Below, piece by piece: positions 8,352 to 10,444 of a stretch of DNA of 62,302 bases. The notes under the pieces were generated by a model, which had not been told where the DNA came from, did not search any database, and saw nothing but the letters and a program-made list of their open reading frames with translations. Where the stretch lies: assembly GCA_031556715.1 (NCBI GenBank), contig JAVBSR010000089.1, positions 1 to 62,302 of the forward strand, in the 5' to 3' direction. The translations under genes were made by a program, and so were the position numbers. This stretch comes from Cellulomonas sp. Lineage in GTDB: Bacteria; Actinomycetota; Actinomycetes; Actinomycetales; Cellulomonadaceae. Within the stretch, counting starts at the first letter, position 1. Every line of letters starts with the position of its first letter.

Positions 8352-9764
8352 GTGGCACGAGCGCGTGGTGACCGGCAGTCGGGTGCTGGGACCGTGGAGT
8401 ACATCGGTGTGATCATCGGCGTGGCTGCGATGGTCGCCGTCCTGCTGATCGCCTTCCCGTCGGTCGGTGAGCAGCTGGCGTGCAGGCTGTCGCAGGTCGT
8501 CGGGTCGATCACCGGAGGTTCGGCCAGCTGCTCCGGCGCCTCGGGCGGCCAGGGCCAGGCGGGTCCGGACAGTAGCGGGTTCGTAGAGCCGAGGACGACG
8601 ACGACCGGTCCGGGCACGGGCCGGGTCGAGTTCGTCGTCACCGTGCCGGAGGGCCAGAACTGGACGGTCGAGTCCGACCAGCCGTGGCTGACGGTGCCGG
8701 ACAACCGGGTGTTCGACGGTCCGACGATCAGAGGTTTCTACGGTCCGTTCGGGGGCGGCAACGGTCCGGGGTCGCTCACGGCCGTGGTGCACACCAACCC
8801 GGACGCCGACGGCAAGCCACGCACGGCGACCCTGACCTTCACCGGGCCGAACGGGGAGAAGTTCACCCAGGAGATCACGCAGGCAGGCGGGACGGCCCAG
8901 ACCGTCGTGCTCGGCGACTCGTTCTCGGCCGGCATCGGTTCGGGGAAGAACCACCCGGACGCCCCCACGGACGACGGCTGCCACCGCAGCTCGATGTCGT
9001 GGGGTCGGCAGCTCGAAGCAGGCACCGCCACCGGCGCCGGGACACCCAGCATCTCGTTGTCCGCCTTCGGGGCGTGCAGCGGGGCCACTGTCGACGGGAC
9101 CGACCTGACCGGCAGGACCGGCGCACCGTCGTTGCTGGCGCAGATCGAGGCCAACAAGGACGCGCTGGCGCAGGCCGACCAGGTCGCGTTCTCCACCGGC
9201 GGCAACGACATCGGGTTCGCCCCGATCGTGCAGGACTGCGTCGTGCCGATCAACTCGGTGGCCAACTGCCACCGAGCGGTCAGGGAGGGCAGGTGGCTGG
9301 TCAACGGCCGGGGCAACGAGGCCTCGCCGCTGAGCCCCCGGCTGGAACAGGCCTACCGGGCGATGCTGGAGGCCGCGCCGAACGCGACCATCTACGTCGT
9401 CGGGTACCCGCCGATGGTCGAGCTGGACGACACCGGCGGCGGATTCCTCGACTGGGGCGAGATCGAACCCGAGAACTACCAGGAAGTCGTCGACCTGCTC
9501 AACGAGCTCAACTTCCAGATGGCGAGCACGGTCAACATGGTGAACGAGTCGACCCCCGGTGGCGGGCGGCTGGTCTTCGTCGACCCGACGAAAGAAGGCT
9601 CCCCGTTCCACGGGCACTCGCTGACCGACGAGGTCCCGTTCTACAACGGCCTGCAGACCGAATGGGCCTGGCCGCCCGTCAGCTACCAGTCGTACCACCC
9701 CAACGACGCAGGTAACGAGGCGTATGCTCAGTGGGTCGGCTGGTACATGATGGGCAGGCGGTGA
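8352..9764 (+). CDS. Flp-pilin-like N-terminus + BACON-like domain + SGNH/GDSL hydrolase fusion
   Basis: G|AGTVEY plus hydrophobic helix (prepilin-like). BACON-like WTVESDQPWLTV...NPD..PRTATLTF...ITQ. SGNH blocks LGDSFSAG, GGNDIGF and YHPN. Start inferred at GTG 8352. Confidence 0.8.
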   Translation: MARARGDRQSGAGTVEYIGVIIGVAAMVAVLLIAFPSVGEQLACRLSQVVGSITGGSASCSGASGGQGQAGPDSSGFVEPRTTTTGPGTGRVEFVVTVPEGQNWTVESDQPWLTVPDNRVFDGPTIRGFYGPFGGGNGPGSLTAVVHTNPDADGKPRTATLTFTGPNGEKFTQEITQAGGTAQTVVLGDSFSAGIGSGKNHPDAPTDDGCHRSSMSWGRQLEAGTATGAGTPSISLSAFGACSGATVDGTDLTGRTGAPSLLAQIEANKDALAQADQVAFSTGGNDIGFAPIVQDCVVPINSVANCHRAVREGRWLVNGRGNEASPLSPRLEQAYRAMLEAAPNATIYVVGYPPMVELDDTGGGFLDWGEIEPENYQEVVDLLNELNFQMASTVNMVNESTPGGGRLVFVDPTKEGSPFHGHSLTDEVPFYNGLQTEWAWPPVSYQSYHPNDAGNEAYAQWVGWYMMGRR

Positions 9765-10444
9765 CGGTGCGCAGCAACGGTCCGCGGGGGCTGGCTGGAG
9801 CGGGGCTCATGGTGGCGGCAGGGCTGGTGCTCGGCGGGTGCGGTGGCGGCGACGAGGGTGGCGTGACCGGCTCGTCGGCCCCGACCACCAGCGCGTCGGC
9901 CTCGTCGGTCCAGGCTGCGCCGTGGGCCGAGGAGATCTCCACCGGTGACGAGCTGTGGCAGGTGAGCGGCGACGGGTTCACGCTGACCGCCTACGCCATG
10001 GGCGAGGACACCGCCCAGCGTGAGTCGTACTACTCCGACGACGTCACCAACGAGCCGCTGGTTGCCGCCGGCGACCCGGTCGTGTTCGTCAACCTGGTGC
10101 TGACCAACACCAGCGACGAGGTCCAGTACGTCGCCACCGACCAGCCCAAGCTGCTCGCCGCGCCCTTCGAGAGCCCGTACGCGCAGCAGGGTGTCGCCGA
10201 CATCACCTATGCGACGGACTCCCAGTGGCGCCACCACGACGTGTGGTACCACTCCGTCCGGGTGGGCAGCGGTGTGTCGTCGCCCTACCCGTTGGCTCCC
10301 GGTGAGTCGTGCGCGCGGGGTTACATCCTGCCGCTGGGGCTCGGGGTCCAGTGGGCCTTCATCGGGGCGGTGTGGGTCTACGACGGCGAGGACGACCCGG
10401 GGCACGCTGTCACCTTCCAGCAGCAGGACCACACGTTCGGCTGA
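9761..10444 (+). CDS. Hypothetical lipoprotein translationally coupled to the pilin-lipase gene
   Basis: GTGA overlap with the upstream stop; lipobox LVLGGC followed by a Ser/Thr linker. Confidence 0.7.
   Translation: MTVRSNGPRGLAGAGLMVAAGLVLGGCGGGDEGGVTGSSAPTTSASASSVQAAPWAEEISTGDELWQVSGDGFTLTAYAMGEDTAQRESYYSDDVTNEPLVAAGDPVVFVNLVLTNTSDEVQYVATDQPKLLAAPFESPYAQQGVADITYATDSQWRHHDVWYHSVRVGSGVSSPYPLAPGESCARGYILPLGLGVQWAFIGAVWVYDGEDDPGHAVTFQQQDHTFG

What the first reader, a model, noticed from the sequence alone, without database searches (positions are those of the whole stretch)
8352..10444. Flp-pilin-headed lipase with a coupled lipoprotein: possible pilus-displayed effector/immunity pair
Seen: the N-terminus RQSG|AGTVEYIGVIIGVAAMVAVLL has the Flp prepilin pattern (Gly-1, Glu+5, Tyr+6, hydrophobic helix). 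It is fused to a BACON-like spacer and an SGNH hydrolase retaining GDS, GND and the terminal His. The next gene overlaps by GTGA and encodes a lipoprotein. The pair sits among housekeeping genes ~10 kb from the Tad island. Inference: the enzyme is processed by prepilin peptidase and assembled into or exported by the Tad pilus. The lipoprotein could be an immunity protein, as in T6SS lipase effector/immunity pairs.
Basis: partly seen in the sequence, partly recalled or inferred. Interest (0 to 1): 0.78.

Follow-up and report, generated by a model that had tools for sequence, protein, structure and literature searches.

The report
Pilin-headed lipase toxin with immunity lipoprotein
A lipase-family protein begins with a pilus-subunit-like head and is followed by a lipoprotein predicted to bind it; the same head carries nucleases, deaminases, proteases and other lipases in related actinobacteria, so it likely marks an undescribed route by which these bacteria arm their Tad pili with swappable toxins.

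Summary
Observation confirmed. Window 8352-9764 encodes a Flp-prepilin-like head (Gly-1, Glu+5, Tyr+6, Cys pair), a BACON spacer and an SGNH hydrolase nearest Streptomyces phospholipase A1. Window 9761-10444 is an overlapping lipoprotein with an Ig-like fold. The head is a shared module. In other Actinomycetia it carries Tox-REase-5, PT-HINT with deaminase, Ntox24 or colicin D, proteases, and three lipase types, each with its own downstream partner. One related locus holds an orphan lipase tip and extra lipoprotein copies, as polymorphic toxin loci do. Co-folding supports lipase-lipoprotein binding (0.73, best control 0.00), but the confident interface omits the catalytic residues. Intact heads occur in all 16 of 61 genus genomes with a DUF5936-type tad locus and in none of the other 45. 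They occur in only 5 of 22 genomes with a TadA like that of the nearby island. The cognate locus is on contig C174. Best reading: a Tad-pilus-borne phospholipase effector with an immunity lipoprotein (0.6). Cleavage, pilus assembly, toxicity and protection are all untested. Nine literature searches found only a passing mention of Flp-fused toxin domains.

The parts
8352..9764 (+). Pilin-headed BACON-SGNH hydrolase gene, 470 aa from the GTG at 8352
8352..8384 (+). Basic leader ending at Gly11, the predicted prepilin peptidase site
   Evidence: sequence; Gly invariant in 30 heads; motif definition from PMC3244431 passages
8385..8531 (+). Flp-like mature head: Glu+5, Tyr+6, hydrophobic helix, then Cys44 and Cys60 (disulfide inferred)
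8658..8885 (+). BACON Ig-like spacer, residues 103-178, after a Gly/Ser/Thr-rich linker
   Evidence: Pfam PF13004 E 1.1e-5; also hit in homologues
8901..9737 (+). SGNH hydrolase domain, residues about 184-462; Ser190, Gly244, Asn285, His449; no Asp three residues before the His
   Evidence: Pfam; PDB 4hyq phospholipase A1 E 1.1e-9, 5mal lipase E 8e-7; alignment
9761..10444 (+). Cognate lipoprotein, 227 aa, lipobox Cys27 at 9839-9841, Ig-like DUF4352-like fold; predicted binder of the SGNH domain

Best explanation
The large protein is likely a minor pilin that carries a phospholipase effector on a Tad pilus, and the lipoprotein is likely its immunity protein. Shown: the domain layout, the gene overlap, the sharing of this head by many unrelated cargos, cargo-specific partner genes, and co-occurrence with the DUF5936-type tad locus. 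Inferred steps: (1) the precursor inserts in the membrane with the cargo outside; (2) a prepilin peptidase cuts after Gly11; (3) the head helix packs into the pilus built by the C174 tad locus, while the linker and BACON domain hold the enzyme away from the filament; (4) on contact the SGNH domain hydrolyses a neighbour's membrane lipids, probably as a phospholipase A1; (5) the lipoprotein, anchored on the same outer membrane face, binds the enzyme and protects the producer and its kin. The pair is one cassette of a polymorphic toxin system of Actinomycetia.
For: Same head on hallmark toxin cargos: of 36 headed ORFs from 11 genomes of other families, 2 carry Tox-REase-5, 8 carry PT-HINT (with Toxin-deaminase 1, Ntox24 2, Colicin_D 1), 1 Abhydrolase_8, 2 SGNH, 2 NlpC/P60, 1 Peptidase_C2. 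The representative search adds Pput2613-deaminase, Cytotoxic and phospholipase A2 cargos. Partner type follows the cargo's site of action: an SMI1/KNR4 gene (E 8.7e-11) follows the deaminase and an Imm52-like gene (E 0.0016, under the cut-off) follows one REase-5, while 27 of 38 headed ORFs in the genus are followed by a gene with a lipobox by a simple rule, and no partner cluster is shared between the 5 cargo clusters. The head-BACON-SGNH gene lies directly before this lipoprotein family in the window, L055, L162, L163 and L170. L168, which overlaps L170 by 87 identical bases, continues with a second lipoprotein copy, a 41-residue orphan SGNH tip, a third copy and then the tad-locus OmpA lipoprotein. 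Co-folding score 0.73, best of 3 controls 0.00; the mark was reached by 116 of 157 solved complexes and 2 of 215 mismatched pairs; runs agree in at least 62% of contacts, partner pLDDT at least 87. Intact heads in 16 of 16 genus genomes with DUF5936 and 0 of 45 without.
Against: No activity, cleavage or toxicity data. The confident interface (about 307-325, 374-396, 413-421) does not list Ser190, Asn285 or His449, so active-site plugging is not indicated. The lipoprotein has no Pfam hit and its fold matches are generic Ig-like domains, none a named immunity protein. Two SGNH cargos without BACON lack this partner: one is followed by a 96-aa hydrophobic ORF and one has no clear partner. The commonest cargo, a roughly 460-aa protein without Pfam hit (23 of 38 in the genus, 60 of 99 long representatives), also has lipoprotein partners and may be structural. 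The cassette stays at the same site in two other genomes, which is less mobile than many toxin cassettes. The only A24 peptidase found in this 86%-complete genome lies beside a pilM-like gene, not in a tad locus. Kin are not independent, so 16 of 16 overstates.
Confidence: 0.6

Rival explanations
1. The protein is a pilus-displayed enzyme for feeding, adhesion or remodelling of the cell's own envelope, and the lipoprotein is a folding chaperone or a loading adaptor, not an inhibitor.
For: The predicted interface lies outside the catalytic residues. The nearest solved relatives are free secreted Streptomyces enzymes. NlpC/P60 cargos sit near tad loci. The dominant 460-aa cargo also has lipoprotein partners. 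The site is conserved in two other genomes.
Against: The same head carries Hint-linked nucleases and deaminases with immunity-type genes. The orphan tip and extra lipoprotein copies in L168 are hard to explain by a chaperone role.
Confidence: 0.25
2. The head is an ordinary uncleaved membrane anchor, derived from a pilin, that holds a surface lipase independently of any pilus.
For: The gene lies far from the cognate tad locus; Pfam does not call the head; no TadV-like peptidase was found in the tad locus.
Against: Gly-1 and Glu+5 are invariant in 30 heads. Intact heads were found only in genomes with the DUF5936 locus, and the one head outside them is a 171-aa internally deleted remnant.
Confidence: 0.08
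3. The pilus delivers the lipase to eukaryotic membranes in the gut habitat (protists or host), and the lipoprotein only limits self-damage.
For: The sequence is held by invertebrate gut metagenome runs. Phospholipases can act on both kinds of membrane (PMC10730906 passage). Calpain-like cargos occur on the same head.
Against: Cargos such as Colicin_D, Cytotoxic and Tox-REase-5 with immunity-type partners point to bacterial targets.
Confidence: 0.07

Closest known systems
Polymorphic toxin systems (Zhang et al. 2012, PMC3482391; term search of the held text only)
   Same: Conserved N-terminal trafficking module, variable C-terminal toxin domains, PT-HINT linkers, adjacent partner genes, orphan tip and extra partner cassettes.
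   Different: The trafficking module is an Flp-like prepilin head. The words pilin, Flp, TadE, pilus and prepilin do not occur in the first 300,000 of 357,715 characters held.
Myxococcus xanthus Kil Tad-like pilus and its minor-pilin Tips (PMC12075869, passages; PMC8460266, listing only)
   Same: A Tad pilus with interchangeable minor pilins that expose variable domains and is tied to contact killing.
   Different: [quoted passage not shown] Here the enzyme is fused to the pilin and has a partner gene.
Staphylococcus aureus TslA lipase toxin and TilA immunity lipoprotein (PMC10730906, passages)
   Same: Monoderm phospholipase A effector with an adjacent immunity lipoprotein present in variable copy number.
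   Different: TslA is T7SS-secreted and has a GxSxG lipase; TilA is DUF576. Here: SGNH fold, pilin head, Ig-like lipoprotein.
Streptomyces SGNH enzymes: phospholipase A1 (PDB 4hyq) and lipase (PDB 5mal)
   Same: Homologous catalytic domain over residues 184-386. The missing Asp before the His matches their catalytic-dyad type (recalled, not shown by the alignment).
   Different: They are about 235-aa stand-alone enzymes without head, spacer or known partner.
Flp-pilin-fused ARC toxin domain (PMC12605009, section 8 read)
   Same: Notes a toxin domain fused to an Flp pilin.
   Different: One phrase, classed as an extracellular or cell-wall anchoring element; no system, locus or immunity analysis in that section.
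Streptomyces umbrella toxin particles (PMC11062931, passages)
   Same: Actinobacterial polymorphic toxins with downstream immunity genes.
   Different: Tat/Sec-secreted ALF-repeat particles; no pilin, Flp, Tad or pilus in the text.

Membership tests
Flp prepilin / Tad minor pilin | Gly or Ala at -1, Glu+5, Tyr+6, then a hydrophobic stretch | tested here: met
   G11, E16, Y17; definition from PMC3244431
Flp prepilin / Tad minor pilin | Homology to a genuine Flp pilin of a tad locus | tested here: met
   E 1.9e-6 within the genome to the short pilin-like ORF on C174, which has weak Flp_Fap and DUF4244 hits under the cut-offs
Flp prepilin / Tad minor pilin | Small size (about 60 aa) of major Flp pilins | tested here: not met
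   470 aa; it can be only a minor, cargo-bearing pilin
Flp prepilin / Tad minor pilin | Genomic dependence on a tad machinery | tested here: met
   16 of 16 with DUF5936 TadC, 0 of 45 without; kin not independent
Flp prepilin / Tad minor pilin | Cleavage by a prepilin peptidase and assembly into the pilus | not testable with these tools
   One A24 peptidase found, outside the tad loci
SGNH hydrolase | Ser, Gly, Asn and His of the four blocks | tested here: met
   S190, G244, N285, H449 invariant; Pfam over the cut-off
SGNH hydrolase | Phospholipase A1 activity | not testable with these tools
   Only nearest-structure inference
Polymorphic toxin system | One N-terminal module with many unrelated C-terminal toxin domains | tested here: met
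Polymorphic toxin system | Cognate partner gene directly downstream, specific to the cargo | tested here: met
   No partner cluster shared between 5 cargo clusters; SMI1/KNR4 after the deaminase
Polymorphic toxin system | Orphan C-terminal tips and extra immunity cassettes | tested here: met
   One locus, L170 plus L168
Polymorphic toxin system | Partner binds and neutralises the toxin | tested here: inconclusive
   Binding predicted; neutralisation untested; confident interface omits the catalytic residues
Polymorphic toxin system | Toxicity to target cells | not testable with these tools
   Needs a bench assay
T6SS Tle/Tli lipase pair | GxSxG lipase motif as in Tle1-4 | tested here: not met
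   The motif is GDS of the SGNH type; Tle1-4 motif from PMC10730906
Known immunity protein families | Profile or fold match of the lipoprotein | tested here: inconclusive
   No Pfam hit; best fold matches are generic Ig-like domains, 4r4g Z 8.8, rmsd 3.3, 125 aligned

The most novel reading that the evidence does not exclude
The DUF5936-type Tad pilus of Actinomycetia is a contact-dependent toxin delivery machine whose effectors are themselves pilins: an Flp-like head loads interchangeable lipases, proteases, nucleases and deaminases onto the filament, each with its own immunity gene, and the conserved 460-aa pilin-headed protein forms the tip or entry component.
Probability: 0.5. Interest if true: 0.9.

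Novelty: new variant of a known kind. Interest (0 to 1): 0.78.

Why it matters
It would give a function to a tad locus found in several actinobacterial families and add a delivery route to the polymorphic toxin list. It would show type IV pilins acting as the effectors themselves in a monoderm. It also raises a testable question: how Hint-linked cytoplasmic toxins leave a pilus and enter a target. The head profile is a ready hook for finding new toxin and immunity families: 1,013 representatives scored at E up to 0.001, plain pilins included.

Tried and rejected
The tad island at window 20-33 kb as cognate: rejected on co-occurrence and head similarity. A colicin-M-like identity for one uncharacterised cargo family, recalled from motifs: no support from Pfam, a single-sequence PDB search or a 7-sequence profile search; dropped. 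Folding the 460-aa C174 cargo without an alignment gave pLDDT 45, unusable. Fold searches of the lipoprotein model listed no named immunity protein; this does not exclude one. Expression: an RNA run holds the region, but contigs cover genes and intergenic DNA alike, 29 of 30 bins, so DNA carry-over cannot be excluded and it is not evidence of transcription. No promoter-like or terminator-like site and only short chance-level repeats around the pair. The protein homologue search with residues 1-70 found only 3 proteins; profile searches were needed. Partners after three Hint-type cargos gave no informative Pfam hit. Earlier-findings look-ups by sequence and by genome returned nothing.

Full report
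Observation. Window 8352-9764 encodes 470 aa with a basic leader, Gly11, Glu16 (+5), Tyr17 (+6), a hydrophobic helix, Cys44 and Cys60, a Gly/Ser/Thr-rich linker, a BACON domain (103-178) and an SGNH hydrolase. The four catalytic-block residues are invariant in 8 homologues. The nearest solved relatives are a phospholipase A1 (4hyq, E 1.1e-9) and a lipase (5mal, E 8e-7). There is no Asp three residues before His449; I recall this as the dyad type of those Streptomyces enzymes, but the PDB alignments did not reach the His. The lipoprotein gene starts in the GTGA overlap at 9761; its Cys27 is invariant in 11 homologues. GC at third codon positions is 0.91-0.92, slightly under the neighbours' 0.93-0.96.

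Which pilus. The genome (3.07 Mb, 176 contigs, 86% complete) has four TadA-like ATPases. Residues 1-62 did not hit the window's own Flp-like pilin but matched four places on contig C174. C174 holds RcpC, a CpaE-like protein, TadE, TadA, TadB, a TadC with DUF5936, a short Flp-like pilin, an OmpA-family lipoprotein and TadG. It also holds a head fused to a 450-aa unknown cargo, a head fused to a DUF6782 metallopeptidase, each followed by a lipoprotein, and a 72-aa head without cargo. Among 61 genomes of the genus, 16 have DUF5936. A profile built only from this genome's five heads hit those 16 and one more, whose match is a plain Flp of another locus. All 16 have at least one long headed ORF. 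A broader profile, built from those genomes and so circular for them, hit 4 of the other 45: two TadE-like genes, one plain Flp and one 171-aa internally deleted head-protease remnant still followed by its lipoprotein. Of the 45, 34 have other TadA-like ATPases at E up to 1e-15. Of 22 genomes with a TadA close to the window's (E<1e-40), 5 have intact heads. The genomes are kin, so these counts overstate independence. The cognate is therefore most likely the DUF5936-type locus, not the island 10 kb away.

The head is a shared module. In the genus, 38 headed ORFs over 200 aa fell into 5 cargo clusters: 23 unknown of about 460 aa, 6 Peptidase_C2, 4 unknown, 3 DUF6782 metallopeptidase and 2 BACON-SGNH (Pfam was run on 14 of the 38). 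A simple rule found a lipobox in the next gene for 27 of 38; 8 have a small hydrophobic partner, 2 were missed by the rule but cluster with lipoproteins, and 1 had no partner call. No partner cluster is shared between cargo clusters. Across the class, 56 of 201 genomes matched the head profile, plain pilins included, and only 31 candidates per genome were scored. I fetched 40 regions chosen for long frames or tad context and kept 36 headed ORFs from 11 genomes after dropping 6 rows as TadE-like, unrelated or cut off. Pfam named a cargo in 16 of 36: Tox-REase-5 (2), PT-HINT (8; with Toxin-deaminase 1, Ntox24 2, Colicin_D 1), Abhydrolase_8 (1), SGNH (2), NlpC/P60 (2), Peptidase_C2 (1). An SMI1/KNR4 gene follows the deaminase; a weak Imm52 hit follows one REase-5; the Abhydrolase_8 and C2 cargos are followed by lipoproteins. 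All 11 genomes have DUF5936 over the cut-off, but 30 of 201 do, and in several I saw only plain pilins in the regions read. The representative search gave 1,013 proteins at E up to 0.001; 99 of the top 150 are 200 aa or longer, 60 of them the 460-aa type and 7 SGNH. Further cargos were a Pput2613-type deaminase, a Cytotoxic domain and a phospholipase A2.

The pair itself. The lipoprotein family is small: 10 proteins including its own and 9 loci in two scans, 4 of them duplicates that I did not read separately. A head-BACON-SGNH gene lies directly upstream in the window, L055, L162, L163 and L170. In L167 no SGNH match precedes the lipoprotein in the roughly 300 bases available. L162 and L163 keep the same dedA-pair-dehydrogenase site; in G006 dedA, pyrE and the dehydrogenase are adjacent and the pair lies elsewhere. 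Over 15 pairwise comparisons of 6 pairs (two paired only by equal contig length), SGNH identity of 44-89% tracks lipoprotein identity of 48-86%; this shows co-inheritance, not co-evolution. L170 overlaps L168 by 87 identical bases. Read in order they give a complete pair, a small membrane-protein gene, a frameshifted second lipoprotein, a 41-residue SGNH C-terminal tip 78% identical to the L055 enzyme, a frameshifted third lipoprotein 78% identical to the L055 partner, and then the tad-locus OmpA lipoprotein. This is the orphan-cassette layout of polymorphic toxin loci and places a pair at the tad locus; it is a single metagenome locus and the frameshifts may be assembly errors.

Structure. 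The lipoprotein folds confidently (mean pLDDT 80) as an Ig-like sandwich; Atlas neighbours of a homologue are DUF4352-like actinobacterial lipoproteins and the best solved match is 4r4g (Z 8.8, rmsd 3.3, 125 aligned). Co-folding the SGNH domain (178-470) with the lipoprotein (50-227) scored 0.73 against a best control of 0.00; the mark was reached by 116 of 157 solved complexes and 2 of 215 mismatched pairs, counts that hold only roughly with my own alignments; runs agree in at least 62% of contacts and partner pLDDT is at least 87. I found no like solved complex. The confident interface covers about 307-325, 374-396 and 413-421 and does not list Ser190, Asn285 or His449. Binding is thus supported, but inhibition by active-site plugging is not; blocking membrane access, or a chaperone role, remain open.

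Mechanism. Shown: layout, overlap, shared head, cargo-specific partners, orphan cassette, co-occurrence. Inferred: membrane insertion, cleavage after Gly11, packing of the head in the pilus, display on the linker and BACON spacer, lipid hydrolysis on contact, protection by the lipoprotein. The peptidase is a weak point: the only A24 protein found lies next to a pilM-like gene on C74. I give 0.6 to effector plus immunity, 0.25 to a displayed enzyme with a chaperone, 0.08 to a plain anchor and 0.07 to a eukaryote-directed enzyme.

What is known. Nine searches of the open library (one of them aimed at the TslA comparison) listed no paper on pilin-headed polymorphic toxins in actinobacteria. PMC12605009 (section 8 read) names Flp pilins once among elements fused to an ARC toxin domain. 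Term searches found no pilin or Flp in PMC3482391 (held part), PMC13483458, PMC12419801 or PMC11062931. PMC12075869 (passages) shows a Tad pilus with interchangeable tips used for killing in Myxococcus. PMC10730906 (passages) shows a monoderm phospholipase toxin with an immunity lipoprotein, secreted by T7SS. PMC3244431 (passages) supplied the Flp motif. Subscription papers and all supplements were not seen. It works like a polymorphic toxin system and like TslA/TilA; it is not a Tle/Tli pair and not a major Flp pilin.

Verdict. A real feature and one cassette of a broad, apparently undescribed pilin-headed cargo system tied to the DUF5936-type Tad pilus. New variant of a known kind; interest 0.78.

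Noticed in passing
window 20255-47800: An island with GC falling to 0.57, holding a different tad locus (SAF protein, TadA, two T2SSF proteins, Flp1-like pilin, TadE genes), repeated lipoprotein-like and PKD-like genes, a subtilase and a LysM protein, with many ORFs lacking Pfam hits.
   Followed up: partly
L001 9727-11085 (G000 C174 12726-14084, minus): The commonest pilin-headed cargo, about 460 aa, no Pfam hit, often 2-3 paralogues per genome beside the DUF5936 tad locus; candidate tip or entry component. A single-sequence fold failed.
   Followed up: partly
L001 8719-8937 (G000 C174 11718-11936, plus): A 72-aa head-only ORF, inverted between two cargo genes and sharing its start with the metallopeptidase cargo gene; possible remnant of cargo shuffling.
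   Followed up: no
G000 C174 22539-24092, minus: A CpaE-like ATPase appears fused in one frame to a C-terminal TadE-like pilin segment.
   Followed up: no
L048 3813-4934, L062, L075, L052, L120 6882-8006, L127, L130: A conserved pilin-headed cargo family of about 200 aa, in several cases followed by a lipoprotein, with no Pfam or PDB match.
   Followed up: partly
L149 4088-4603: An internally deleted head-protease remnant with its lipoprotein in a genome lacking the DUF5936 tad locus; fits decay after loss of the pilus.
   Followed up: partly
L125-L136 (G242): One genome with 14 head matches, many with PT-HINT and different toxin tips, scattered over contigs.
   Followed up: partly
L167 164-955 and 1267-1923: An orphan copy of the lipoprotein followed by a second lipoprotein that shares its N-terminal part but has a different body.
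   Followed up: no
L171 1180-3137 (G000 C74): The genome's only detected A24 prepilin peptidase, next to a pilM-like gene, suggesting a separate type IVa pilus cluster.
   Followed up: partly
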